IMG/VR virus record: IMGVR_UViG_3300042317_000390
Coordinates: 104,654-168,653 of that record
Strand: one strand, 5' to 3'
From: a virus
DNA length: 64,000 nt
Both the position numbers and the translations under genes were made by a program. Below, piece after piece: positions 33,843 to 45,405 of this stretch. Position 1 is the first letter of the stretch. Every line of letters begins with the position of its first letter. The notes beneath the pieces were generated by a model. That model was not told the origin of the DNA and made no database searches. It worked only from the letters and a program-made list of their open reading frames with translations.

Positions 33843-34260
33843 TATCGTTAACAACGTTGTTGAACGGCTAAAGCAACAACCTATTGGCGACCTAATTACA
33901 GAAGAAGATCTGTATGATATTGTCAATCAGGCTATTCCAAAGGTATTCTTTGAGAAGCGGCAAGAAACAGAAGGCTCTGGTTATCATACCAGAACAGTTG
34001 AGAAAGAGCCTTTGATCTTTGAGATCATGCGTCAGGTTCTTAAATCTCACGTTGAACAATTGGTGAAGGATTGGGCTGTTGAAAATGCAGACAAGATTCT
34101 TGAACACTGGAAAATGGTGACTGACCAAAACATTGTCAATTACGTTGAAAAGATCCAGAATGAAAAGGTCAATAGCCAAGTTAGGGATATGTTATCCAAA
34201 TTCTTGGACCAAATGAATCTGGAACGTGCTAAAATGGGACTACCGCATATATACCTATGA
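33829..34260 (+). CDS. hypothetical protein
   Basis: ORF coupled to g46 (ATGA). Confidence 0.55.
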   Translation: MKNNNIVNNVVERLKQQPIGDLITEEDLYDIVNQAIPKVFFEKRQETEGSGYHTRTVEKEPLIFEIMRQVLKSHVEQLVKDWAVENADKILEHWKMVTDQNIVNYVEKIQNEKVNSQVRDMLSKFLDQMNLERAKMGLPHIYL

Positions 34261-35963
34261 TTTACTTTAAAAAACTCCGATGGAAAAACCTCCTATCGAC
34301 CGGCAACGTATTCACAGAGATAGACCTAGCGAACAATCCAACTACGCTTATAGTTGGAATAAATGGGGCTGGGAAATCCACGATTCTGGATGCTCTGAGT
34401 TTTGGTCTTTTTGGAAAACCCTTTCGAAAGATCAACAAGCCACAGCTTCTAAACACAATTACTCAAAAGAACCTAGTAGTAGAGATTGAATTCTCTATTG
34501 GAACTATTGAGTATAAAATCATTAGAGGCATCAAACCTAATGTATTCGAGGTACATCAAAACGGTAAACTATTAAATCAATCTGCTGAGTCTAAGGACTA
34601 TCAAGAGATTCTTGAGAAGCAGATTATTAAGGTTAACCACAAGTCGTTCTCACAAGTGGTCGTTCTTGGATCGGCTACTTTCCAACCTTTTATGCAATTA
34701 TCCGCTCAGCAGAAAAGAGAAATCATAGAGGATCTGCTAGACCTACAGATCTTTACGACTATGAATTCTTTATTAAAAGATAAGAACAGCGAGAACGACT
34801 CAAAGATTACAAAGAACAATACCGAAAGAAAAGTTATTGAGTCTAAGATTGAACTCACCGAACAGCATATGTTTGAGATGCAGAATAACACCGGTGAGAT
34901 CATTGCTGAAAAGAAGAAGCAGATTTCTAAGCTAGAAGATGAAGGTCTTGCTATATATAATGAGTTAAAGGATTATGAGGACAAGATCGCTAAGATGGAA
35001 GGTGATCTTGAAGACATTCAATCTATTAACGAAAGAATAAACAAACTTTCTAAACTCAAGCATAGAATTGAAGCTAGAGTTAATGTTATTAATGAGGAAG
35101 TTAAATTCTTCACAGAGAATACAACTTGCCCTACTTGTAAACAGGATATAGCTGAAGAATTCAGAGATAAGACTGTTAACATTAAGAAGCAGGAAATCTC
35201 TGATAACGAAGCTGGACTAGAGACTCTAGCTGAGCAATATGATAAAGAGAAACAGCAGCTATCTGTTAGCATGAATAAAGCGGCTGATGTTCATTCGTTG
35301 AAGCTAGAACGTATTAGGTGTATGGAGAGCGTTAAGGCTATCAAGAATAATATCATTCAGTTAAATAAAGACGTTGAAAAGCTCAAAGAAGTTAAGTCCA
35401 TAGAAAAGGACGAACGGCTTAATGGGTTTAAACAGGATCTTGAAAAGATCGCAGAGGACTATAATCTTCTAATTGAAGAGAAGAATGTATTAAGTTCTGC
35501 TGCTGTGTTGTTGAAGGATAACGGTATCAAGGCTAAGATTATTAAGCAGTATATTCCAATCATAAATAAACTGATTAATAAATATCTATCAGCTATGGAC
35601 TTCTTTGTATCCTTTGAGTTAGATGAGAATTTTAAAGAGTCAATCAAGTCTAGACACAGAGACGATTTCTCTTATGATTCTTTCTCAGAGGGCGAGAAAC
35701 AAAAGATAGATTTAGCATTATTGTTCACGTGGAGAGCCATCGCAAAGATGCGCAATTCTATTAACACCAATCTACTAATTATGGATGAGGTATTTGACTC
35801 TTCTCTTGATTTAAATTCAACAGAATATCTGATTAATATCATCAGAGATATAGCCAAGGATAATAATATCGTTATCATATCTCACAAAGAACACATGAAT
35901 GAGAAATTCACCAACGTAATTAAATTTGTTAAAATCAAAAACTTTTCACAGATTCAGAGGTAA
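34257..35963 (+). CDS. g46: recombination ATPase subunit gp46 (Rad50/SbcC-like)
   Basis: GINGAGKST, CPTC zinc hook, FSEGE, MDEVFD, ISH. Confidence 0.95.
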   Translation: MIYFKKLRWKNLLSTGNVFTEIDLANNPTTLIVGINGAGKSTILDALSFGLFGKPFRKINKPQLLNTITQKNLVVEIEFSIGTIEYKIIRGIKPNVFEVHQNGKLLNQSAESKDYQEILEKQIIKVNHKSFSQVVVLGSATFQPFMQLSAQQKREIIEDLLDLQIFTTMNSLLKDKNSENDSKITKNNTERKVIESKIELTEQHMFEMQNNTGEIIAEKKKQISKLEDEGLAIYNELKDYEDKIAKMEGDLEDIQSINERINKLSKLKHRIEARVNVINEEVKFFTENTTCPTCKQDIAEEFRDKTVNIKKQEISDNEAGLETLAEQYDKEKQQLSVSMNKAADVHSLKLERIRCMESVKAIKNNIIQLNKDVEKLKEVKSIEKDERLNGFKQDLEKIAEDYNLLIEEKNVLSSAAVLLKDNGIKAKIIKQYIPIINKLINKYLSAMDFFVSFELDENFKESIKSRHRDDFSYDSFSEGEKQKIDLALLFTWRAIAKMRNSINTNLLIMDEVFDSSLDLNSTEYLINIIRDIAKDNNIVIISHKEHMNEKFTNVIKFVKIKNFSQIQR

Positions 35964-35966
35964 GAT

Positions 35967-36677
35967 ATGGCTAAGACCAGTAAGTTAGTTAAAGAATTAC
36001 AACAGCTATTAAAGAACAAAGGCTACGATCCTGGTCCAATTGATGGTGATCTTGGACCTAAGACGATTGATGCTATTAAGAAAATAGTATCTAATGTTTC
36101 CAAGCCAGTAGTTAGTAAGGCGGCTGAAGTTAAACCAGCTGTCGTGGAAAAGGCAAAAGAAGTAACACAGAAGGTTGTAGAGGTAATTAAACCAACTCCA
36201 GTTCCAGAGTTTGATGCTAATACCCTAAAGGGCAGAGAGCGTCCAGTATTTGCTAAAAAAGTCTTCATGGATCTTGGTTGGAAAGATTACCAAGCAGCTT
36301 CTATGGTTGGTCAGTTCATGCAAGAATCATATGCTGATCTTCGCACTAATATTTGGGGCGATAACCATACAGCTTATGGTATTGGTCAGTGGCGTGATTA
36401 TAACAACCAGCCAGGTAGACTAACTGATCTATTCAAGTTTGCTCAGGAACGTGGTAAGCCAATCCACGATCTAGAAACACAGATTCGTTTTGCTGATTGG
36501 GAACTAACTAAAGGTTCTGAGAAGAGTCTTGGTAAGAGACTAAAGGAATCTAAAAATATTGATGAGGCGCTAGAAATAGCTATTGGTTATGAGCGCCCAA
36601 GAGGTTATACTAAGGATAATCCACGTGCTGGCCACGGCTGGGCTAACAGAGAGAAATTTGCTAAGAGCTTACTATGA
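35967..36677 (+). CDS. endolysin-like: peptidoglycan-binding domain plus phage lysozyme domain
   Basis: LQQLL...GYDPGPIDGDLGPKT; QES, YGIGQW, YERP. Confidence 0.8.
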   Translation: MAKTSKLVKELQQLLKNKGYDPGPIDGDLGPKTIDAIKKIVSNVSKPVVSKAAEVKPAVVEKAKEVTQKVVEVIKPTPVPEFDANTLKGRERPVFAKKVFMDLGWKDYQAASMVGQFMQESYADLRTNIWGDNHTAYGIGQWRDYNNQPGRLTDLFKFAQERGKPIHDLETQIRFADWELTKGSEKSLGKRLKESKNIDEALEIAIGYERPRGYTKDNPRAGHGWANREKFAKSLL

Positions 36678-37141
36678 AAATTGATGATCGATATTTGTTA
36701 GAGAAATGTGAAGATTTTGATTTCAAAGATCCACCTTTCGATCCGATTGAGTTCGCACAGAACTTAGTTAAGTTTATGTATGATGAAAATGGACTAGGGG
36801 TAGCAGCAAATCAGGTTGGTGTTCCATATCGTATTTTCGCCATGAGAGGTTCACCAGAGAACTTTGTTTGTTTTAATCCCAAGATTGTTCAATATGGAGA
36901 AATGGAAGTTGTCCTAGAAGAAGGTTGTCTTTCATATCCAGGTCTTGTTGTTAAAGTAAAAAGACCACAGCATATCCGTGTTCGTTTTAATACCCCTAAT
37001 GGTGAAGTCCTAACTAAACAGTTTACAGGTATGACCGCTAGAGTATTTCAACATGAGTATGATCATCTAGATGGTATTCGTTTTTACGATAAAGCTAATA
37101 AATTTCATAGAGATAAAGCAATGAAGGAATGGAAGAAATGA
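36674..37141 (+). CDS. def: peptide deformylase
   Basis: GLGVAANQ, EGCLS, QHEYDHLDG. Confidence 0.95.
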   Translation: MKIDDRYLLEKCEDFDFKDPPFDPIEFAQNLVKFMYDENGLGVAANQVGVPYRIFAMRGSPENFVCFNPKIVQYGEMEVVLEEGCLSYPGLVVKVKRPQHIRVRFNTPNGEVLTKQFTGMTARVFQHEYDHLDGIRFYDKANKFHRDKAMKEWKK

Positions 37142-37263
37142 ATTATTTCCCATTTAAGGAATTACAACAAAGAGTCGATGACGCAAACGAACTTGTCCTC
37201 TTTACTATCGTAGTATTTTTAGTATATATTTGGGTAAAGTTATTCTTATATTGGGACAAATAA
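37138..37263 (+). CDS. 41-aa membrane peptide (absent from ORF track)
   Basis: ATGA overlap with def; LVLFTIVVFLVYIWVKLFLYW hydrophobic span; stop abuts the next ATG. Confidence 0.5.
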   Translation: MNYFPFKELQQRVDDANELVLFTIVVFLVYIWVKLFLYWDK

Positions 37264-37827
37264 ATGAATATCTTCTATCTAAGCGAAGACCCTGTTCAAG
37301 CTGCTCAGTGGATGGTAGATCGTCACGTAGTTAAGATGATCTTAGAATCTGCTCAGCTTCTATCTACAGCACATCGTTTGATGGATGGAAACGAAATCCT
37401 ACTAGAAGTTGATATACTTCAGGAGGATGGTACACTTAAAACTAAGAAAAAGAAATGGTGGTTACTCGATGACTCTCGTGAAGAACTTATATACTCAGCT
37501 ACGCACATTAATCATCCGTCTGCTATATGGACTCGCACAAGCGTCGAGAATTATAATTGGCTAGTCGATCATCTATTCGCCTTAATGGACGAATACACTT
37601 ACCGTTACGAAAAGAAGCATAAGTGTTCTGGTGATCTTAGCTATATGCTACAATCACCTCCCAAGAATCTTAAAGATTGGGATATGACACCTATGCCTTC
37701 TTGTATGGCAGAAGAATATATTATTTCCGATAATCCAGTTGACAATTATCGAAACTATTATATAAAGGGTAAGGCACATCTACATAAATGGAAAAAACGT
37801 GAGGTTCCCCCTTGGTTTCAGAGTTAA
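37264..37827 (+). CDS. pyrimidine-dimer DNA glycosylase / DenV-related protein
   Basis: MNIFYL...DRHVVKMILESAQLLSTAH, THINHPS, EYTYRY, YRNYY. Confidence 0.75.
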   Translation: MNIFYLSEDPVQAAQWMVDRHVVKMILESAQLLSTAHRLMDGNEILLEVDILQEDGTLKTKKKKWWLLDDSREELIYSATHINHPSAIWTRTSVENYNWLVDHLFALMDEYTYRYEKKHKCSGDLSYMLQSPPKNLKDWDMTPMPSCMAEEYIISDNPVDNYRNYYIKGKAHLHKWKKREVPPWFQS

Positions 37828-38393
37828 AAGAAACTATAGTTTATGATGATATTATCCCCGTAGAGTTACAAGACGAATTTGAAAATACTCTGATGAATTA
37901 TCCTAATTGGAGATTCATCAGAGATATGTCATATTCTAACAACGAAGCTTTTCCTTCGTATGGTTTTAATATGATGTTCAAACACCCTAGCTTTGGGGTT
38001 ACGTCTCCACTGTATGAGAAAATATCAGTTCCGATAGCTAATGCTATTCTGGAAAAGAAACTTATTGAATTTGAAGATATTCATTTCAATAGATCTTTTC
38101 TACAACTCCCGTTAGCTGATAAGTTTATCAAACCACATAATGGTATACATTTAGATCTTCCACAAGATCATTATGCTTGCGTATATTATGTGAATGATTC
38201 TGACGGAGACACTATACTTTACGAGCAAACTAGGTATAATACGTTGCCTAGTTCTCAGAATGTTCCCACAGTAGAACATAAAAGAGTTACCCCTAAAAAG
38301 GGTAGAGTGGTTATATTTGATGGTGCTAGATACCATTGCTCTAGCCAACCAAGAGATAGACACCGCTGTATTATCAATTTCGACTTTGTGTGA
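37812..38393 (+). CDS. 2OG-Fe(II) oxygenase
   Basis: HLD (HxD), YYVNDSDGDT, FDGARYH, distal R. Confidence 0.8.
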   Translation: MVSELKETIVYDDIIPVELQDEFENTLMNYPNWRFIRDMSYSNNEAFPSYGFNMMFKHPSFGVTSPLYEKISVPIANAILEKKLIEFEDIHFNRSFLQLPLADKFIKPHNGIHLDLPQDHYACVYYVNDSDGDTILYEQTRYNTLPSSQNVPTVEHKRVTPKKGRVVIFDGARYHCSSQPRDRHRCIINFDFV

Positions 38394-38403
38394 GGTATAT
38401 ATA

Positions 38404-38778
38404 ATGGTAGATATGTTTAATTCCGTAAAAGAATTTCAGACCGCAGTTGGTCAGCACGTAGGCACTAAGCCAGAGTTTCCTGATGATAAAGAACGTATTC
38501 TACGTATGAGATTATTGGAAGAAGAGTTTGATGAATACTTACAAGGCGAACAAAATCACGATCTTGAAAATATTGCAAAAGAGTTGGCAGATATTATATA
38601 CATCGTTTGTGGGACTGCTGCTTCTTATGGCATTCCGTTAAACGAAGTATTCGCTGAAGTCCATCGTTCTAATATGGATAAGTTAGTTGATGGTAAGCCA
38701 GTTCGCCGTGAAGATGGTAAGATTTTAAAACCAGAAGGTTGGACTGCTCCAGATATCAAAAGCATCTTAGGGATTTAA
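38404..38778 (+). CDS. MazG/PRA-PH-like nucleotide pyrophosphohydrolase
   Basis: LLEEEFDE, KELADIIY, EVHRSNMDK, DGKILKPEG; GAGG SD before ATG 38404. Confidence 0.85.
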   Translation: MVDMFNSVKEFQTAVGQHVGTKPEFPDDKERILRMRLLEEEFDEYLQGEQNHDLENIAKELADIIYIVCGTAASYGIPLNEVFAEVHRSNMDKLVDGKPVRREDGKILKPEGWTAPDIKSILGI

Positions 38779-38780
38779 TA

Positions 38781-40145
38781 ATGGTCAATGTGATTGTTGC
38801 TAGAGACAGATTAGATTGTTCTAAACTAGAAGGTCAATTTGTAGACGAAAGTCATTTTGACGTTTTAGTAGAAGAAGATACTGACTGTTATATGCCACCG
38901 CTTTGTGATATGCTCACTAAAGCTAACTGTGGTATGAAAGATTGCGAATCTTGCGAAGCAGGATCTGATGAGAAAAGAATCGCTTTCAAGTTTCGTAAGA
39001 ACTACTTCACCAAGGAAGAGTGCGACGAAGCCTATATCGGTCTTCATGGTGCAGCAACTCAGAGCTTTAATAGAGGTCTAGCTGCTGGTCCTCGTGGATT
39101 AGAAGGCGATGATTCTAGAGAATGGGTAACTCCTTACCAGACAGCGGTATTGAGTTATTTCATCGAAGGTGGATCTAGTCTTAACTCATTCATTGGCGAA
39201 GGTGAAGTAAACGTCAAGTCTATCAGAGAGCGTTATGCTACTCTTAAGCATAATGAAGAGACTAGAGGTAGCGTTTGGCTTCCAAGTGAGATTTCTAAAC
39301 ATTATCCAGATACCGAAAATTGGTTCGATAGATGGGCTGATGGTTTAGATAACTATTCTCTGGAAGAAAAGAGAACGGAAGCACTACGTGTTTCTAAGGA
39401 ATGGATCTCAACTACTAATTATGCTAAGCCAGTATTCTCTGGTGTTGCCGGTTGGTATGATCGTTATCCTCGTATTCCTTATGGAAGACCTACTGCTTAT
39501 ACCGAGCATCACCCAGAACTATTCGAAAGGGCATATCCTTTCCTACAGTCTTTGAATAAAGGTTTCAAGGAACTATTACCTTGGCGTTGGTCTAATCAGA
39601 GATCAGTAGCTGATAAGATTGATTCAAAGTTCTTAGTTCCAGATACTGTATTCACTACGATTACAGTTAACAAGACCTTTAGAACAGCCGCTCATTACGA
39701 TGCTGGTGATTACCAAGACGGTCTTAGTAATCTTCTTGTTCTAGGAAGTGGAGAGTATACTGGTGGTTATCTAGTATTTCCAGAGTATCGGATAGCAGTT
39801 AATGTTCGTCCCGGTGATCTACTTCTGGTTAATAATCACGAGGTTCTTCACGGCAATACACCTATTGTTCTTGACCATCCAAAGGCAGAACGTATTTCGG
39901 TTGTGTGTTACTTCCGAGAGAACATGCTAAAGCTTAAGTCCTATAAGTATGAAAATCTACGTAGGCAGTTTGTCGAGGAACGCAAGAATAATCAGAATCA
40001 TCCTAGTTGGCATCGTTTATGGAATGGTATCTCTCCAGATATGTGGAAGTCAACTGAGTGGAGAGATTTCTTAGATAAGCATAATGCTGTTGATGAAGAC
40101 GGCGTAGTTAACGTAGGCTTCAAAGGGTTTGAAAGCTTCGCTTAA
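38781..40145 (+). CDS. TET/JBP-family 2OG-Fe(II) dioxygenase (5-methylpyrimidine oxidase-like)
   Basis: FTTITVN..FRTAAHYDAGD (HxD), GGYLVFPEY, HGNTP, RISVVCYFRE. Confidence 0.8.
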   Translation: MVNVIVARDRLDCSKLEGQFVDESHFDVLVEEDTDCYMPPLCDMLTKANCGMKDCESCEAGSDEKRIAFKFRKNYFTKEECDEAYIGLHGAATQSFNRGLAAGPRGLEGDDSREWVTPYQTAVLSYFIEGGSSLNSFIGEGEVNVKSIRERYATLKHNEETRGSVWLPSEISKHYPDTENWFDRWADGLDNYSLEEKRTEALRVSKEWISTTNYAKPVFSGVAGWYDRYPRIPYGRPTAYTEHHPELFERAYPFLQSLNKGFKELLPWRWSNQRSVADKIDSKFLVPDTVFTTITVNKTFRTAAHYDAGDYQDGLSNLLVLGSGEYTGGYLVFPEYRIAVNVRPGDLLLVNNHEVLHGNTPIVLDHPKAERISVVCYFRENMLKLKSYKYENLRRQFVEERKNNQNHPSWHRLWNGISPDMWKSTEWRDFLDKHNAVDEDGVVNVGFKGFESFA

Positions 40146-41269
40146 TGAATACAATATTCGATACGTTATCAATAGACAGGAATGAGATTAAATGGGAAGA
40201 TTATCTTTTCGATCTCACTCCTGTTGAAGAAGTAAATGGTATATTCTTCAAACGTGAAGATAAGTTTGCTCCTTTAGGTTATGGTGGTATTAACGGTTCA
40301 AAGTTACGCCAGTGTATTTGGTTAACTGAACAATACGTTAAGACTGCTAAGAATCCTATTGGTGTTATATCTGGTACGAGCGTAAAGTCACCACAGCTAC
40401 CTATGGGATCTGCAGTAGCAGAACACTTCGGTCTTAAGAGTATTCACGTTATCGGTTCAACCAAAGCTGATATAGCTCATAAGCATGAGAATGTTAATAC
40501 AGCTACTTGGTTTGGTGCCGAGTTCTACATCAATAAGCATATAGCTTATAATCCAGTATTACAGAGAAGAGTTCAAGATATTCTTTCTAAGGATGAAAGA
40601 GTTAAGGATTACTTTTATCTGGAATATGGTATCACAGTAGATCACAAAGTAAACTCACCAGAAAGAGTAGAGAGATTTCACTATGTTGGATCTGAGCAAA
40701 TTAAAAACATACCAGAACATATTACCACTTTGGTTATACCAGCTGGTTCTTGTAATAGCTGCACTTCTATTCTTTACGGTCTTGCTAGATTTCGCCCTAA
40801 GAATCTCAGAGACGTATATCTTATTGGGATTGGACCAAACAAGATAGACTTCATTGAAGAGCGTTTGGATATTATTGAGAACGTATCTGGTGTTTATACT
40901 AAGCCGTTTACTAGAATCTATCATGATACTCCTAACAAACAGCAACAGTATGAGTCGGGTCTAACTTCTTTCTTTACAGATAATACATCAGATTATAATT
41001 TTAATCTGCATCATTATGATCTTCATACAACTAATTATGTTGACTACCAAGAAGAAATGCCTTATAGTTACGGTGGAATCGAATTTCATCCTACCTATGA
41101 AGGCAAGATGATGACTTACGTTAATGAGCGTATGCCTAATATTCTTGGTGAGAATACGATGGTATGGATTGTTGGTAGTAAGCCACGTAAAGAAAAGATG
41201 TATGATATGCTAAGAGGTAGATTGGGAGAGTTCCCAACTCATATTAAGGAATTTACCTATGCAGAGTGA
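40145..41269 (+). CDS. fold-type II PLP-dependent enzyme (ACC deaminase / D-Cys desulfhydrase-like)
   Basis: TPVE..FKRED...GGINGSKLRQ (PLP lysine), PAGSCNS, PTYEGK. Confidence 0.8.
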   Translation: MNTIFDTLSIDRNEIKWEDYLFDLTPVEEVNGIFFKREDKFAPLGYGGINGSKLRQCIWLTEQYVKTAKNPIGVISGTSVKSPQLPMGSAVAEHFGLKSIHVIGSTKADIAHKHENVNTATWFGAEFYINKHIAYNPVLQRRVQDILSKDERVKDYFYLEYGITVDHKVNSPERVERFHYVGSEQIKNIPEHITTLVIPAGSCNSCTSILYGLARFRPKNLRDVYLIGIGPNKIDFIEERLDIIENVSGVYTKPFTRIYHDTPNKQQQYESGLTSFFTDNTSDYNFNLHHYDLHTTNYVDYQEEMPYSYGGIEFHPTYEGKMMTYVNERMPNILGENTMVWIVGSKPRKEKMYDMLRGRLGEFPTHIKEFTYAE

Positions 41270-42431
41270 GCAGCAGCTAGGTAGATGGTCTGAATTAACT
41301 AACCAACCAGAAATAAAAGATCTTCAATATGGTATGGACTTTCGTGAGCCACGGTATCGCCGTGAAGTCTTTCTAAGATTTTATGAGTTTCATCTTAAAC
41401 ATAGAAGCCATCCCGGTGGTGTATACTTTGCTTTTCCATGGTTAACGAAATACTATGGGATGGACATGGAAGATAAGTTGTGGATAGCGTTCATTAACGG
41501 ATGCTCTCAGAATATTGTTACATCTTCTATGATCTACGAGAGATTCCCCAAGTTTAAAGATGTCAACGTTGATGAATTATCTGACTGGTGGGATACAGTT
41601 CATCCCAAATTTAAAGCAGGCAGTGGGTGGGATTCAGATAGAAAATACTGTAAAGTTGGAAAAACAGGATTCCCTTCTTGCGTAAAATCGTATAAAGATA
41701 ACGTAGACAAATACGGAACCCAAGAGAATATGTTTGGTTGTCTAACTACTAATGACAACCAATTCTATAATTTTGGTAAGGTATGGGATCATGTAAGAAA
41801 TAATTTTCTATCTTTTGGAAGATTATCAACTTTTTCATATCTTGAGTATTTACGAATCCAAGGAATTAATATAGACTGTAATAGTCTTTTCTTGGACGAT
41901 ATCAGCGGATCAAAGTCTCATCGTAACGGTCTGTGTAAAGTATTAGGTCGTGATGATTTAGATTGGTGGGATGCAGAGGCTTCTCAGAATAAAGGTTTTG
42001 AGGGCTATAAAAAAGAAACCATTGAATGGTTAGTTAAAGAAGGTGATACTCTTCTGTTGGAAGCTAAAGAACGGATTAAGCATCCAGACGTTAGTTTCTT
42101 CACGATGGAATCAACCTTCTGTTGTTATAAGTCTTGGCATCGTCCTAATCGTCGTTATCCAAACGTCTATATGGATATGATGTATAATAGAATCAAATAC
42201 GCAGAGGAAGAGTGGGGAGATAAGTTTCAACATTTCTGGAAGATGCGTAGAGATTCTTTACCAGAACATCTTAGATTAGAAGACAATCCTGCTGATCCGG
42301 GTTTATGTAAAGAGAAGCAAAATCATTACCTAAATACAGGTCAAGTTATTATGATGGATGAAGAGTGGGATTGCTTTAAGAACGACTTTAACGATAACAC
42401 TAAGAATACCCTTGAAAGGTTCTTTGGATGA
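41259..42431 (+). CDS. amino acid:DNA transferase-like protein (aGPT-PPlase clade 2)
   Basis: HhH-like FGRLSTFSYLEYL, D..GSKSHRNGL, ESTFCCYK; operonic with PLP enzyme and kinase. Confidence 0.7.
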   Translation: MQSEQQLGRWSELTNQPEIKDLQYGMDFREPRYRREVFLRFYEFHLKHRSHPGGVYFAFPWLTKYYGMDMEDKLWIAFINGCSQNIVTSSMIYERFPKFKDVNVDELSDWWDTVHPKFKAGSGWDSDRKYCKVGKTGFPSCVKSYKDNVDKYGTQENMFGCLTTNDNQFYNFGKVWDHVRNNFLSFGRLSTFSYLEYLRIQGINIDCNSLFLDDISGSKSHRNGLCKVLGRDDLDWWDAEASQNKGFEGYKKETIEWLVKEGDTLLLEAKERIKHPDVSFFTMESTFCCYKSWHRPNRRYPNVYMDMMYNRIKYAEEEWGDKFQHFWKMRRDSLPEHLRLEDNPADPGLCKEKQNHYLNTGQVIMMDEEWDCFKNDFNDNTKNTLERFFG

Positions 42432-42964
42432 AAATCTTTGCTATCGGTGGTGAGCCAGGTTCTGGTAAGTCCACTCTAATGAAAGAAATACTTAGAAAGA
42501 ATGTTTTTTCTTCTATGTTTGATCAAGTAAAGTTAGTTCCATATCATCAATCAGGATTTGTATATATTCTTGGCAAGTATGAAGAAGGTCAAGTCTTCTC
42601 TGGCACAGATCGTATGTCTATGGCGGTTCAACCAGAGGCAGTGAAGTTTCTAGCCTCCCTTCCTGACAATTCTATTGTCCTTTTTGAAGGTGACCGGCTC
42701 TTCACTGCCTCTTTTCTAGAGCATTGCGTAGAGAAGTATGATACAGAAATCATCTATCTAGAGACTGATAAAACTATCAGAGAAGAAAGATATAAGGAAA
42801 GAGGCAGCGATCAGAACGAAACTTGGTTACAGGGTCGTCAAACTAAGATTGCTAATATCCTTTCCAATATGGTTTTGATGTTTAATACGGTTAAGTTTAA
42901 AAACAATAACAAAGAAGATCAGAAAGTTATTGTTGATCATATTATGAAGACTTTGGAGGCATAA
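42428..42964 (+). CDS. P-loop nucleotide/DNA kinase
   Basis: GGEPGSGKST, GTDRMS, FEGDRL, ERGSDQ. Confidence 0.75.
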   Translation: MKIFAIGGEPGSGKSTLMKEILRKNVFSSMFDQVKLVPYHQSGFVYILGKYEEGQVFSGTDRMSMAVQPEAVKFLASLPDNSIVLFEGDRLFTASFLEHCVEKYDTEIIYLETDKTIREERYKERGSDQNETWLQGRQTKIANILSNMVLMFNTVKFKNNNKEDQKVIVDHIMKTLEA

Positions 42965-43413
42965 TGACACTAAAACCTAATATAGATACCATGTATCCAT
43001 TCGCATCATCACCAACAGGTTCTGTTAGCTCTGCTGAAGAGTATAAGTTTGAAAACGGTCACACTTGGTCAGTAGGTGGAGAAGAGAGAATTAGAGTTAA
43101 CGAAAGCGGCGCTCATTTTACTGCATCAACATGGCCACCTAAATATAAATATAAGGAAGACCAGATTATTGCTGACTTCCATGCCTATATAGATAAGACG
43201 TATGGGCAGCACTATATGACTGAAGAGCAGAATATAGAATGTTTCGATGTTTGGTTGGCTCTTGGTGATTCTTTACCAACTTTCCGAAACACAGCTATTA
43301 AGTATCTTTGGCGTTACGGCAAGAAGAAGGGCAGTAATAAGGATGACCTTATGAAGGTTCTTCATTATACGTTAATGATGCTTTATAACGATCATTATAA
43401 AGGTAATAAATGA
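42964..43413 (+). CDS. DUF3310-like protein
   Basis: YIDKTYGQHY, KYLWRYGKK, DLMKVLHY. Confidence 0.7.
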   Translation: MTLKPNIDTMYPFASSPTGSVSSAEEYKFENGHTWSVGGEERIRVNESGAHFTASTWPPKYKYKEDQIIADFHAYIDKTYGQHYMTEEQNIECFDVWLALGDSLPTFRNTAIKYLWRYGKKKGSNKDDLMKVLHYTLMMLYNDHYKGNK

Positions 43414-43598
43414 GAACACTAGAACAATACGAGGCAGATAAGAAAAAGCTAAAAGAAGAGTTCGGTACAGGTATACAGTGTCCAGCTTGTGGTGATGAAT
43501 TAGTTATTTCTGATCCGGGTGTTATTTTACTATCAAACCCTCCTAGAAAAAAAGTTCATTGTCCAACTTGCAAATATAAAAATACTATTACAGCATAG
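43410..43598 (+). CDS. small Zn-ribbon protein
   Basis: CPACG...CPTCKY. Confidence 0.6.
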   Translation: MRTLEQYEADKKKLKEEFGTGIQCPACGDELVISDPGVILLSNPPRKKVHCPTCKYKNTITA

Positions 43599-43609
43599 AA
43601 AGGTATATT

Positions 43610-44467
43610 ATGGAAATTAAGATCCCAGTTGAAAAGTTGAGAGATAGGAAGCTATTCGTAGCCACTCCTATGTATGGTGGTGTTTGTGCAGGTATGTTTG
43701 CTAAGTCATGCGCTGACCTATCTGCTATTTGTACGCAGTATGGTATTCCACTTCAGTTTTATTATCTATTCAACGAGTCTCTAATTACACGTGCACGTAA
43801 TTATTGCTGCGATGAATTTATGCGTTCCGACGCTCAGCATATGATGTTTATCGATTCTGATATCGGCTTCAATCCTCAAGACGTTATTGCTCTTATGGCA
43901 CTACAGGCTAATGAGGAAGAGAAGTATGATATCATTGGTGGTCCATATCCTAAGAAGTGTATCTCTTGGGAGAAGATTAAGCACGCAGTAGATAAGGGCG
44001 TTGCCGATGAAGATCCAAACGTTCTTGAGAAGTTCGTTGGTGATTACGTGTTTAATCCGAAGGGAGATCAGACTAGTATTCCTCTAAGTGATCCGGTAGA
44101 AGTATTAGAAATCGGAACGGGCTTTATGATGGTCACCAAGAAGGCCATGCAGAAGTTCTACGATTCCTATAAGGATCAGTATTCTTATAAGCCAGATCAT
44201 GTTCGTACAGAGCATTTTGACGGCACTCGTGAAATTCTAATGTTCTTCCAGGCAGAAGTAGATCCAAAGTCAAAGCGTTATCTTTCTGAGGATTATTGGT
44301 TCTGTCAGAAGGCTCAAGAGATCGGACTACGTACGTGGTTCTGTCCTTGGATGAAGTTACAGCATGTTGGAACCTATATTTTTGGCGGTTCTCTTGCTGA
44401 CTTGGCTTCAATCGGTGCTTCGGCAACGGCTGATCCGGGTAAACTTGGTGGTAAAAAGAAGAAGTGA
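43610..44467 (+). CDS. GT-A-fold glycosyltransferase-like protein
   Basis: VATPMYGG, SLITRARN, FIDSD (DxD), GTGFM, SEDYWFC, HVG. Confidence 0.7.
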   Translation: MEIKIPVEKLRDRKLFVATPMYGGVCAGMFAKSCADLSAICTQYGIPLQFYYLFNESLITRARNYCCDEFMRSDAQHMMFIDSDIGFNPQDVIALMALQANEEEKYDIIGGPYPKKCISWEKIKHAVDKGVADEDPNVLEKFVGDYVFNPKGDQTSIPLSDPVEVLEIGTGFMMVTKKAMQKFYDSYKDQYSYKPDHVRTEHFDGTREILMFFQAEVDPKSKRYLSEDYWFCQKAQEIGLRTWFCPWMKLQHVGTYIFGGSLADLASIGASATADPGKLGGKKKK

Positions 44468-44484
44468 AATAACGGAGCTAAATT

Positions 44485-45141
44485 ATGAAGATTGATGTAG
44501 ATACGGTAAATGTTCTGAAGAATTTCTCGAAGATTAATTCTTCAATCGTAGTCCAAGAGGGTAATGTTCTAAAGACCATTTCTCCTACTAAGACTATCAT
44601 GGCGAAGGCAAACGTCAAGACTGACTTTCCAAAGCGTTTTGCTATCTATGAGCTAGATCGGTTTCTTGCTACTCTCAGCACGTTCACTGATCCAGAACTG
44701 GATTTCAAGAATCGTCATGTTGACGTTAAGGATAATCGTCGTGTTACGAATTATCTATATGCCGATGAAAGCACCGTCATTAAGGCACCAGAGAACGAAA
44801 TCAGCCTTCCAACGGTTGACGTTAAGTTTACTCTGATAAACGACGACCTGAAGACTATCGAAAAGTCTAGCGGTATTCTCAATCTACCAGATATTGTTAT
44901 TACTGGTGATGGTAAGAATATCTATATCCAGGCAGCTGATACAAAGGTTTCTTCTGGTACAACTGACTCTATTGAGATCGGTCTAACAGACAAGACCTTC
45001 CGTGCTATCTTCAAGGCTGAGAATATCAATAAGATTATTCCCGGCGATTATGATGTTAGTATTTCATCTAAGGGTATCTCACGGTTCGTGGGAAATGGTG
45101 TAGAGTATTATATCGCAGTTGAAGCCACTTCAACTTTCTAA
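44485..45141 (+). CDS. g45: sliding clamp gp45
   Basis: LKNFSKINSSI, FAIYELDRFL, YYIAVE. Confidence 0.9.
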   Translation: MKIDVDTVNVLKNFSKINSSIVVQEGNVLKTISPTKTIMAKANVKTDFPKRFAIYELDRFLATLSTFTDPELDFKNRHVDVKDNRRVTNYLYADESTVIKAPENEISLPTVDVKFTLINDDLKTIEKSSGILNLPDIVITGDGKNIYIQAADTKVSSGTTDSIEIGLTDKTFRAIFKAENINKIIPGDYDVSISSKGISRFVGNGVEYYIAVEATSTF

Positions 45142-45143
45142 TT

Positions 45144-45170
45144 GAAGGGGGTTTATCCCCCTTCTTCTTT
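45144..45170 (+). terminator. probable terminator
   Basis: GAAGGGGG-TTTAT-CCCCCTTC followed by a T-rich tail. Confidence 0.6.
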
Positions 45171-45186
45171 ATTATGGAGCGATGAT

Positions 45187-45405
45187 ATGTCTAGAAGAAT
45201 GCCAGAAGATCAAATAATTCAAACTCTGTTTGGTCCAGAGGTAGTAATGAAAACATGTAATACATGCGATAAAGATCTACCAATATCCAACTTTTATTAT
45301 TCTTCTCATACGTCTAATAATGTTAGAAACCAGTGCATCAACTGTTGGAAAAAGCACAATGGTCGTTCTAACTTCGCTAACGTCGCTATGTTTGAGGTGA
45401 GATAA
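45187..45405 (+). CDS. small Zn-finger protein (resembles an endonuclease N-terminal finger)
   Basis: KTCNTC...FY...NQCINC; GGAG SD. Confidence 0.55.
   Translation: MSRRMPEDQIIQTLFGPEVVMKTCNTCDKDLPISNFYYSSHTSNNVRNQCINCWKKHNGRSNFANVAMFEVR

What the first reader, a model, noticed from the sequence alone, without database searches (positions are those of the whole stretch)
38781..42964. TET/JBP dioxygenase in one operon with an amino-acid DNA-hypermodification pathway
Seen: four tightly coupled genes inserted between g46 and g45. They encode a TET/JBP-type dioxygenase (HxD...HGNT...RISVVCY), a fold-II PLP enzyme, an aGPT-PPlase2/amino-acid:DNA-transferase-like protein and a P-loop kinase. Known: in characterised thymidine hypermodification (e.g. 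phages ViI, M6), 5-hmdU is made before replication by a dUMP hydroxymethylase, then phosphorylated on DNA, substituted with an amino acid and trimmed by a PLP enzyme. Characterised phage TET/JBP enzymes mostly act on 5mC alongside methyl- and glycosyltransferases. Inference: here the hydroxymethyl handle is made on DNA after replication (T to hmU, or 5mC to hmC) and fed to kinase, transferase and PLP chemistry. That would give a possibly new base and partial, sequence-specific protection from restriction. No hydroxymethylase or C5 methylase is visible in this window.
Basis: partly seen in the sequence, partly recalled or inferred. Interest (0 to 1): 0.9.

Follow-up and report, generated by a model that had tools for sequence, protein, structure and literature searches.

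The report
Phage thymine-oxidising DNA hypermodification cassette
A T4-like lake phage carries four packed genes that most likely oxidise thymine in finished DNA and turn it into an amino-acid-derived base; this kind of cassette is already published, but its enzymes end in the same short tail that the phage's DNA polymerase probably uses to bind the sliding clamp.

Summary
Four overlapping + strand genes at 38781-42964 encode:
- a TET/JBP dioxygenase with an intact catalytic set;
- a PLP enzyme about 50% identical to the ViI gp226-type O-serinyl-thymidine decarboxylase;
- an amino acid:DNA transferase (AADT) with the essential Glu and Cys;
- a P-loop 5-hmdU DNA kinase.

The complete 168.6-kb phage genome has ThyX. 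It has no ThyA-type hydroxymethylase, no C5 methyltransferase and no ParB.

It is not new. Lee et al. 2021 (PMC8989533) described such hydroxymethylase-less TET clusters. O'Toole et al. 2026 (PMC13229309) showed that phage T-dioxygenases are active. This scan has also noted TET-plus-kinase-plus-transferase cassettes at least 54 times, in at least 45 genomes.

Two points were added here:
- The TET gene is a fixed anchor between gp46 and gp45 in many T4-like phages. Downstream payloads are swapped freely; the PLP type is rare (3 of 40 intervals).
- TET, AADT and glycosyltransferases of this island end in an [ST]-L-[DE]-x-F-F tail. It matches the tail of each phage's own DNA polymerase, at the position of the gp45-binding tail of T4 gp43. 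This suggests clamp tethering in place of ParB.

The product is unknown; 5-NeOmdU is my best guess.

The parts
38781..40145 (+). TET/JBP-type 5-methylpyrimidine dioxygenase (5mYOX), 454 aa; predicted thymine dioxygenase that makes 5hmU in DNA
   Evidence: Pfam Tet_JBP E 6.4e-25. H305, D307, H357 and R371 are invariant in 40 homologues. In the AF2 model (pLDDT 81.6) residues 1 to about 420 align to NgTET1, TET2 and CMD1 at Z about 19, against 12-14 for AlkB and FTO. The start at 38781 fits the conserved MV... N-terminus of the homologues.
40125..40142 (+). C-terminal tail of the dioxygenase, GFESFA; a degenerate copy of the family's [ST]LExFF tail
   Evidence: 109 of 120 homologues end in SLESFF-like tails. 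Residues 446-454 have pLDDT below 50, as expected for a flexible docking peptide.
40145..41269 (+). PLP-dependent enzyme of the ViI gp226 type; predicted decarboxylase of the amino-acid-thymidine adduct on DNA
   Evidence: 49-51% identity to Kuttervirus gp226 orthologues. K53 (INGSKLR) aligns with M6 gp52 K36. The profile hits ACC deaminase and D-Cys desulfhydrase at E about 1e-3. phrog_3650 at 1.4e-122.
41259..42431 (+). Amino acid:DNA transferase (AADT, formerly aGPT-Pplase2), 390 aa; donor unknown
   Evidence: Pfam ADDT E 5.2e-22. E284 and C288 are invariant in an alignment that includes M6 gp51 and a ViI-like AADT; these are the residues Lee et al. 2021 showed to be essential. Identity is 36-40% to the actinophage AADTs of Montesquieu and Fortunato, and 26% to the ViI-like one.
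42408..42428 (+). C-terminal tail of the AADT, TLERFFG; candidate gp45 sliding-clamp-binding peptide
   Evidence: It matches the tail of the phage's own gp43 polymerase (STLESFFT) and resembles T4 gp43 SLDFLFG (PMC6212786).
42428..42964 (+). P-loop 5-hmdU DNA kinase (5-HMUDK), 178 aa
   Evidence: Pfam Ploopntkinase3 E 1.2e-12. Walker A GEPGSGKST. 31% identical to M6 gp54 over its N-terminal half. 64-79% identical copies accompany different AADT types in relatives.
44485..45141 (+). gp45 sliding clamp; predicted docking platform for the tailed enzymes (inferred)
   Evidence: Pfam gp45-slide_C E 6.4e-14. 31% identical to T4 gp45. It lies on the same strand, with no convincing terminator between it and the cassette; one marginal 6-pair hairpin at 41350 lies inside the AADT gene.
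45144..45164 (+). Terminator-like hairpin that closes the gene string running through the cassette to gp45
   Evidence: an 8-pair, GC-rich stem followed by a T run. It is the only strong terminator-like site in 35900-45300.

Best explanation
This is a post-replicative thymidine hypermodification cassette of an uncultured T4-like phage.

Predicted steps:
1. ThyX-derived dTTP is built into DNA as ordinary T.
2. The TET/JBP dioxygenase (Fe(II), 2-oxoglutarate) hydroxylates the 5-methyl of some thymines in the polymer to 5hmU.
3. The P-loop kinase phosphorylates the hydroxyl.
4. The AADT attacks C6 with Cys288, expels phosphate and adds an amino acid to the exocyclic methylene.
5. The gp226-type PLP enzyme removes the alpha-carboxylate.

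No radical-SAM isomerase is present, and PLP chemistry needs a free alpha-amine. The amino acid must therefore be attached through its side chain. O-linked serine giving 5-(2-aminoethoxy)methyl-dU, as in phage ViI, is the most likely outcome.

The genes lie in the replication-gene string ending at gp45, and the AADT carries the polymerase-like tail (the dioxygenase a weaker copy). The enzymes probably ride on the gp45 clamp behind the fork.

Shown here: the gene families, the catalytic residues, the absence of alternative hydroxymethyl sources, the synteny and the tails. Inferred: every enzymatic activity, the donor, the extent and sequence context of modification, and clamp binding.
For: - Family assignments and catalytic residues.
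- TET fold over the whole chain.
- Own genome: no PF00303, no PF00145; ThyX present; one TET, one AADT, no TAGT.
- Five related large contigs with kinase/AADT payloads also lack PF00303 and PF00145.
- The same TET orthologue (55-84% identity) at the same site is followed by TAGT, GT1, GATase/GNAT/AADT/kinase or PLP/AADT/kinase sets. Payload type is scattered over the TET tree: 17 changes, against a shuffled mean of 17.1. This fits one common product, 5hmU.
- Published biochemistry of the homologous steps: the 5-HMUDK kinase step, the AADT Cys/Glu mechanism, and gp226 as O-SerT decarboxylase (PMC8989533).
- Phage T-dioxygenase activity in vivo and in vitro (PMC13229309).
- Tails.
Against: - No activity was measured, and no virion nucleoside data exist for this or any close relative.
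- The AADT is only 26% identical to the ViI-like homologue used here to stand for the serine transferase (which of the two ViI paralogues that copy is was not checked). Family members at about 35% identity are known to use different donors (PMC13458397). 5-NeOmdU is therefore a guess.
- Pfam PALP is below threshold for the PLP enzyme.
- The window's own TET tail (GFESFA) departs from the family consensus.
- Some ParB-less clade C1 phage TETs showed no activity in E. coli (PMC13229309).
Confidence: 0.8

Rival explanations
1. The pathway is as described, but the transferase uses a donor other than serine. Candidates are threonine, cysteine, 2,4-diaminobutyrate, ornithine or lysine, attached through the side chain. 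Decarboxylation would then give a base not yet described.
For: - The AADT is 26% identical to the ViI-like AADT and 16% to M6 gp51. Its nearest relatives (36-40%) are uncharacterised actinophage enzymes.
- Donor choice changes within one similarity cluster at about 35% identity (PMC13458397).
- The relative L007 adds a methyltransferase-like gene to the same set, which shows further tailoring in this lineage.
Against: The PLP enzyme is about 50% identical to the gp226 type, which acts on O-serinyl-thymidine. It is far from M6 gp52. The simplest reading is therefore the ViI chemistry.
Confidence: 0.4
2. The dioxygenase acts on 5-methylcytosine laid down by a host methylase, and the kinase, transferase and PLP enzyme build a cytosine hypermodification.
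For: - Clade A/B phage TETs oxidise 5mC.
- Burke et al. 2021 suggested kinase action on TET-made 5hmC for some contigs (PMC8256090).
- Purified phage T-dioxygenases also oxidise 5mC (PMC13229309).
Against: - There is no C5 methyltransferase in this complete genome or in five related contigs.
- All characterised AADT, 5-HMUDK and gp226 homologues act on 5hmdU derivatives.
- Host methylation would give only sparse sites.
Confidence: 0.06
3. The dioxygenase and the three downstream genes are neighbours without a shared pathway. The TET gene would be a lineage core gene with its own role (for example marking DNA), and the kinase/AADT/PLP module would get 5hmU from another source or be inactive here.
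For: - TET occurs in this lineage without any payload (DLP6), and with the kinase alone (L039).
- The window's TET lies on a long branch and has a degenerate tail.
Against: - No other hydroxymethyl source exists in the genome.
- Genes overlap at every junction.
- Catalytic residues are intact in all four proteins.
- In the 40 intervals surveyed, every payload lies directly downstream of TET.
Confidence: 0.06

Closest known systems
Metavirome TET_JBP-initiated thymidine hypermodification clusters (Lee et al. 2021, NAR, PMC8989533, Fig. 2 sequences 22-25)
   Same: There is no dUMP hydroxymethylase. A TET_JBP gene lies next to 5-HMUDK, aGPT-Pplase2/AADT and tailoring genes, and the same inference is drawn: T to 5hmU in situ.
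   Different: Those clusters were only drawn from contigs and were not tested. I could not check whether any carries this exact gene set or comes from a T4-like phage. Clamp-type tails and the gp46-gp45 hotspot are not mentioned in the passages I read.
Phage T-dioxygenases, 5mYOX clades C1 (ParB-dependent) and C2 (ParB-independent) (O'Toole et al. 2026, PNAS, PMC13229309)
   Same: Same superfamily and catalytic residues, no neighbouring C5 methyltransferase, and association with P-loop kinases and AADTs (clade C1) or with glycosyltransferases (clade C2).
   Different: - This protein has 454 aa, against about 290-300.
- It has a roughly 120-residue insert at residues 97-215, which may correspond to their variable insertion; that correspondence is my guess.
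- The genome has no ParB.
- One orthologous group pairs with both payload kinds.
- Its clade was not determined.
Salmonella phage ViI 5-NeOmdU pathway (5-HMUDK gp67/gp243, serine:DNA transferase gp247, PLP decarboxylase gp226)
   Same: The same kinase, AADT and PLP decarboxylase logic. The PLP enzyme is about 50% identical to the gp226 type.
   Different: - ViI makes 5hmdU before replication, with a dUMP hydroxymethylase.
- Its genes are scattered and duplicated.
- Its AADT is only 26% identical to this one.
gp45 clamp-binding peptides of T4 (gp43 C-terminus SLDFLFG, gp55, ligase loop GLDFLFD) and the T4 alpha-glucosyltransferase-gp45 interaction
   Same: A short hydrophobic L-[DE]-x-[FL]-F peptide at a flexible end, and a DNA-modifying enzyme that binds the replicative clamp (PMC6212786; PMC13216743).
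   Different: Here the tail sits on a dioxygenase, AADTs and TET-associated glycosyltransferases. Binding is inferred from sequence only. The T4 alpha-GT ends differently; I did not establish how it binds gp45.
Trypanosomatid JBP1/2 and base J
   Same: Thymine in DNA is hydroxylated by a TET/JBP enzyme and then decorated. Relatives of this phage with TAGT payloads would make a J-like glycosylated base.
   Different: JBP proteins carry J-binding or SNF2 domains. Here the decoration is by phosphate activation and amino-acid transfer, not by a sugar.

Membership tests
TET/JBP (5mYOX) dioxygenases, Pfam PF12851 | Profile match above the curated cut-off | tested here: met
   87.7 bits against a cut-off of 34.9, E 6.4e-25; 90.3 bits in the genome search.
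TET/JBP (5mYOX) dioxygenases, Pfam PF12851 | HxD...H iron triad and the 2-oxoglutarate-binding Arg | tested here: met
   H305, D307, H357 and R371 are invariant in 40 homologues.
TET/JBP (5mYOX) dioxygenases, Pfam PF12851 | Double-stranded beta-helix fold closest to TET catalytic domains | tested here: met
   NgTET1 Z 19.2 (rmsd 3.6, 228 aligned) and TET2 Z 19.1 (rmsd 4.1, 260 aligned), against AlkB and FTO at Z 12-14. Foldseek E 5e-9.
TET/JBP (5mYOX) dioxygenases, Pfam PF12851 | Oxidation of T (rather than 5mC) in DNA | not testable with these tools
   Only context speaks to this: no C5 methyltransferase and no hydroxymethylase in the genome.
ParB-dependent 5mYOX subclass (O'Toole et al. 2026) | A cognate ParB-like activator gene in the neighbourhood | tested here: not met
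   No match to PF02195, phrog_723 or phrog_620 anywhere in the complete genome. phrog_723 and phrog_620 do match the ParB-like protein of phage Fortunato.
Amino acid:DNA transferases (AADT, aGPT-Pplase2, PF18724) | Profile match above the cut-off | tested here: met
   79.1 bits against a cut-off of 26.2.
Amino acid:DNA transferases (AADT, aGPT-Pplase2, PF18724) | Essential active-site Cys with a neighbouring Glu | tested here: met
   E284 and C288 are invariant in an alignment with M6 gp51 and a ViI-like AADT. Their essentiality is from PMC8989533.
Amino acid:DNA transferases (AADT, aGPT-Pplase2, PF18724) | Identity of the donor amino acid or amine | not testable with these tools
   At most 40% identity to any homologue, and none of those nearest homologues is characterised.
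5-hmdU DNA kinases (5-HMUDK, Ploopntkinase3 PF18751) | Profile match above the cut-off, with a Walker A motif | tested here: met
   48.2 bits against a cut-off of 27. GEPGSGKST. 31% identical to M6 gp54.
ViI gp226 / M6 gp52-type PLP decarboxylases acting on DNA | Full-length homology to a characterised member | tested here: met
   49-51% identity over 94% of the length to Kuttervirus gp226 orthologues. I used the SFP10 orthologue, not ViI itself.
ViI gp226 / M6 gp52-type PLP decarboxylases acting on DNA | Schiff-base lysine | tested here: met
   K53 is invariant in 5 homologues and aligns with M6 gp52 K36. Its role was proposed in PMC8989533.
ViI gp226 / M6 gp52-type PLP decarboxylases acting on DNA | Fold-type II PLP enzyme | tested here: inconclusive
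   Pfam PALP E 0.078, below the cut-off. The profile hits ACC deaminase and D-Cys desulfhydrase only at E about 1e-3. No structure was predicted.
Pre-replicative thymidine hypermodification (ViI, M6, SP10, PhiW-14 type) | A phage dUMP hydroxymethylase (ThyA family) supplying 5hmdUTP | tested here: not met
   No PF00303 match in the complete genome, while the control genomes do match.
gp45 clamp-binding proteins of T4-like phages | Terminal L-[DE]-x-[FL]-F peptide like that of the cognate polymerase | tested here: met
   The AADT ends TLERFFG and the phage's own gp43 ends STLESFFT. The window's TET ends GFESFA, only a partial match.
gp45 clamp-binding proteins of T4-like phages | Physical binding to gp45 | not testable with these tools
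   No complex prediction or binding assay was available.

The most novel reading that the evidence does not exclude
In T4-like phages, TET-initiated thymine hypermodification is tied to replication through the gp45 sliding clamp. The dioxygenase, the AADTs and the TET-associated glycosyltransferases each carry a copy of the polymerase's clamp-binding tail. The replicative clamp would then do the job that the ParB-like clamp does for ParB-dependent phage T-dioxygenases. This could also explain why some ParB-less phage TETs were inactive when expressed alone in E. coli.
Probability: 0.5. Interest if true: 0.65.

Novelty: new member of a known kind. Interest (0 to 1): 0.45.

Why it matters
As a cassette it adds one more example, a rare PLP-containing one, to a published class, so it changes little by itself.

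Its value lies in what the lineage offers:
- A single conserved T-dioxygenase sits in front of at least eight alternative tailoring sets at one genomic site. This is a natural combinatorial library for DNA base chemistry.
- It gives a sequence-level, testable idea of how post-replicative modification is coupled to the fork. Clamp-binding tails are found on exactly the enzymes that touch DNA first.

If clamp tethering holds, it would give a practical route to activating 'silent' phage TETs in heterologous hosts, by co-expressing the cognate clamp and loader. It would also parallel DNMT1-PCNA coupling in eukaryotes.

Tried and rejected
- Near-identical DNA in 50,697 phage records: none.
- A separate N-terminal domain in the 454-aa dioxygenase: rejected. 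The model aligns to TET folds from residue 1, and the extra length is an internal insert plus a C-terminal extension.
- A fused or nearby ParB: none found with three profiles.
- A second TET, a second AADT or a TAGT in the genome: none.
- Direct PDB sequence matches for the AADT and the kinase: none. Only a profile that included M6 gp51 hit solved AADT structures.
- Placing the protein in the published 5mYOX clades: not possible. No supplementary sequences are held, and Iyer et al. 2013 is not held.
- Restriction behaviour of DLP6 DNA as indirect evidence: the held text of PMC5349666 does not state the result.
- Clamp-type tails on the kinase, the PLP enzyme, GATase, inositol-phosphate synthase, gp45 and the 285-aa protein: absent.
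- One loose-pattern hit in the genome is a baseplate protein, taken as chance.
- Sigma-70-type promoter matches are no more frequent than in shuffled sequence, so no promoter is claimed.

Full report
**What is there.** The window is bases 104654-168653 of a 168,653-bp IMG/VR virus record that CheckV rates 100% complete. Four + strand genes occupy 38781-42964.

The junctions overlap:
- TAATG between the dioxygenase and PLP genes.
- An 11-nt overlap between the PLP and transferase genes.
- ATGA between the transferase and kinase genes.
- TAATG again between the kinase and the following DUF3310 gene.

The wider gene order is:
- gp46 homologue (34257-35963), lysozyme, peptide deformylase;
- a 187-aa protein matching a PHROG annotated as DNA-binding, a small 2OG oxygenase, a MazG/PRA-PH pyrophosphohydrolase;
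- the four genes;
- DUF3310, a zinc ribbon, a conserved 285-aa protein, then gp45 (44485-45141).

The only strong terminator-like site in 35900-45300 follows gp45, at 45144-45164. Promoter-like matches are no more frequent than in shuffled sequence. I therefore describe the four genes only as part of the replication-gene string.

**The four proteins.**
- *Dioxygenase.* The 454-aa protein matches Pfam Tet_JBP well above its cut-off. H305, D307, H357 and R371 are invariant in 40 homologues. The Pfam match covers only residues 240-380, but an AlphaFold model (pLDDT 81.6) aligns to TET catalytic domains from residue 1 to about 420. Scores are NgTET1 Z 19.2 and TET2 Z 19.1, against 12-14 for AlkB and FTO. 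There is no separate N-terminal domain. The extra length over the usual 290-300 aa of phage enzymes is an insert at about residues 97-215 plus a C-terminal extension.
- *PLP enzyme.* It is weak against Pfam PALP (E 0.078). It is 49-51% identical over 94% of its length to the gp226-type enzyme of ViI-like phages. Lee et al. showed that enzyme to be a PLP-dependent decarboxylase of O-serinyl-thymidine in DNA (PMC8989533). Lys53 aligns with the proposed Schiff-base Lys36 of M6 gp52.
- *Transferase.* It matches Pfam ADDT (E 5e-22). It keeps the Glu/Cys pair (E284, C288) that is essential in M6 gp51 and ViI gp247.
- *Kinase.* It matches Ploopntkinase3 and has a Walker A motif.

**Source of the hydroxymethyl group.** The complete genome has ThyX. 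It has no ThyA-family enzyme, the family that holds dUMP and dCMP hydroxymethylases, and no C5 DNA methyltransferase. It has one TET, one AADT and no TET-associated glycosyltransferase. Five related large contigs, one of them 98% complete, also lack both families. Thymine in the polymer is therefore the only visible substrate.

**The family context.** The dioxygenase has 2,601 relatives at E<=1e-5. The best 120 are all about 455 aa long and 59-84% identical, on contigs of up to 173 kb. In 49 related loci the gene sits at the same place: downstream of gp46, usually after the deformylase and MazG-like genes, and upstream of DUF3310, the 285-aa gene and gp45.

What lies directly downstream varies. 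Counts are for 40 complete intervals, some of them near-duplicates:

| Payload after TET | Intervals |
|---|---|
| TAGT glycosyltransferase | 11 |
| GATase, GNAT, AADT and kinase sets | 16 |
| N6/N4 methylase, AADT, kinase | 3 |
| GT1 glycosyltransferase | 3 |
| Kinase alone | 2 |
| AADT, inositol-1-phosphate synthase, kinase | 1 |
| Nothing (phage DLP6) | 1 |
| PLP, AADT, kinase (window and L043; L007 adds a methyltransferase-like gene) | 3 |

On a TET tree the payload type is as scattered as shuffled labels: 17 changes, against a shuffled mean of 17.1. Nearly identical dioxygenases thus feed sugar or amino-acid chemistry. This is what one expects if all of them make the same intermediate, 5hmU.

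**Comparison with what is known.** Lee et al. 2021 already reported metavirome contigs that lack a dUMP hydroxymethylase and carry a TET_JBP gene beside thymidine-hypermodification genes. They inferred in situ T to 5hmU. O'Toole et al. 2026 showed that phage 5mYOX enzymes of clades C1 and C2 oxidise T in vivo and in vitro. They report that clade C1 enzymes linked to kinases and AADTs usually need a ParB-like activator. This scan has itself noted 54 such cassettes in at least 45 genomes.

This genome has no ParB detectable with three profiles. The paper notes that ParB-less clade C1 members exist and that some were inactive in E. coli.

**Product.** With no radical-SAM isomerase, a PLP decarboxylase needs a free alpha-amine, so the amino acid must be attached through its side chain. 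The gp226-type orthology favours O-serine, giving 5-NeOmdU. But the AADT is only 26% identical to the ViI-like one. Its closest relatives (36-40%) are uncharacterised actinophage enzymes. Donor choice is known to differ at about 35% identity (PMC13458397). I put about 0.4 on a different, possibly new, base.

**Clamp-type tails.** The lead came from an earlier scan note, e1-5730038, and I tested it here.
- T4 gp43 ends SLDFLFG and T4 gp55 ends SLDFLYEAND. The gp43 tail is the known gp45-binding peptide (PMC6212786).
- This phage's gp43 is a family B polymerase, 33% identical to T4 gp43 along its whole length. It ends STLESFFT.
- The window's AADT ends TLERFFG. The window's dioxygenase ends GFESFA, a degenerate copy.
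- 109 of 120 dioxygenase homologues end in SLESFF-like tails.
- Among 455 distinct ORFs of at least 100 aa in the 49 related loci, 39 end in L-[DEG]-x-[FL]-[FLYM]. Of those, 38 are TET, TAGT, GT1, AADT, a GNAT or the methyltransferase-like protein.
- Kinase, PLP enzyme, GATase, inositol-phosphate synthase and gp45 have no such tail.

The tails follow each phage's own polymerase:

| Phage | Polymerase tail | Tail of island enzyme |
|---|---|---|
| DLP6 | ATLDSFFA | TET, ATLGDFFV |
| C48C1 | ATLEDFFG | TET, ISLEEFFV |
| Cr30 | ADLSSLFD | TAGT-like, SDLSKLF |

The T4 alpha-glucosyltransferase is a precedent for a DNA-modifying enzyme that binds gp45 (PMC13216743). Binding here is an inference. 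It is cheap to test, and it would supply a clamp in place of ParB.

**Verdict.** This is a real and very probably functional cassette, and a new member of a published kind. Its interest is moderate. That interest is raised somewhat by the payload-swapping hotspot and by the clamp-tail hypothesis.

Noticed in passing
L004:1-3462 (Mycobacterium phage Fortunato, NC_055714.1): The left end appears to encode a ParB-dependent-type cassette that the record mis-annotates. Gene 1 is ParB-like (phrog_6392, E 5e-153). An unannotated ORF at 557-1759 has a weak Tet_JBP match (E 1.8e-5, below the cut-off). The 3' part of 'gene 2' is an AADT, 38-40% identical to the window's. The 'terminase small subunit' is a Ploopntkinase3 (E 1e-72). 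M6 gp54, the known 5-HMUDK, is likewise labelled terminase small subunit.
   Followed up: partly
L018:1375-4767, L047, and L002:10027-13474 (Caulobacter phage Cr30): A myo-inositol-1-phosphate synthase gene sits inside the TET/AADT/kinase island in some relatives, and next to AADT-like and TAGT-like genes in the cultured phage Cr30. This hints at an inositol-bearing base. Other notes of this scan report the same pairing (e1-5654111, e1-5728965).
   Followed up: partly
L003:8356-10388 (Phage C48C1, OQ984149.1): Here the TET orthologue is followed by an unknown 344-aa protein and a UDP-galactopyranose mutase (GLF, E 6e-52). This may point to a galactofuranose-decorated base.
   Followed up: no
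window 40958-40981: The PLP enzyme has an internal GLTSFFTD (residues 272-279) in a loop that varies between homologues. [quoted passage not shown] It is seen only in this protein, so it may be chance.
   Followed up: no
window 42964-43413: The DUF3310 protein that overlaps the kinase stop is kept in most relatives whatever the payload. In PHROGs its domain also occurs in families annotated as nucleotide kinases. Its role is unknown.
   Followed up: no
window 37812-38393: A second, small 2OG-Fe(II) oxygenase (2OG-FeII_Oxy_3, E 2.4e-5, just below the cut-off; phrog_274) lies two genes upstream of the TET gene. It is present in only a few relatives (L021, L025, L051).
   Followed up: no
L019:9353-10036 and homologues: The GATase proteins of the commonest payload share their own conserved C-terminal ending (...IEDLQ). 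It differs from the clamp-type tail and perhaps docks to another partner.
   Followed up: no
L061:10625-11827 (phage T4): In T4 itself the alpha-glucosyltransferase gene lies between genes 55 and 47. DNA-modification genes near the 47/46/45 replication-recombination block may therefore be an old theme in T4-like genomes.
   Followed up: no
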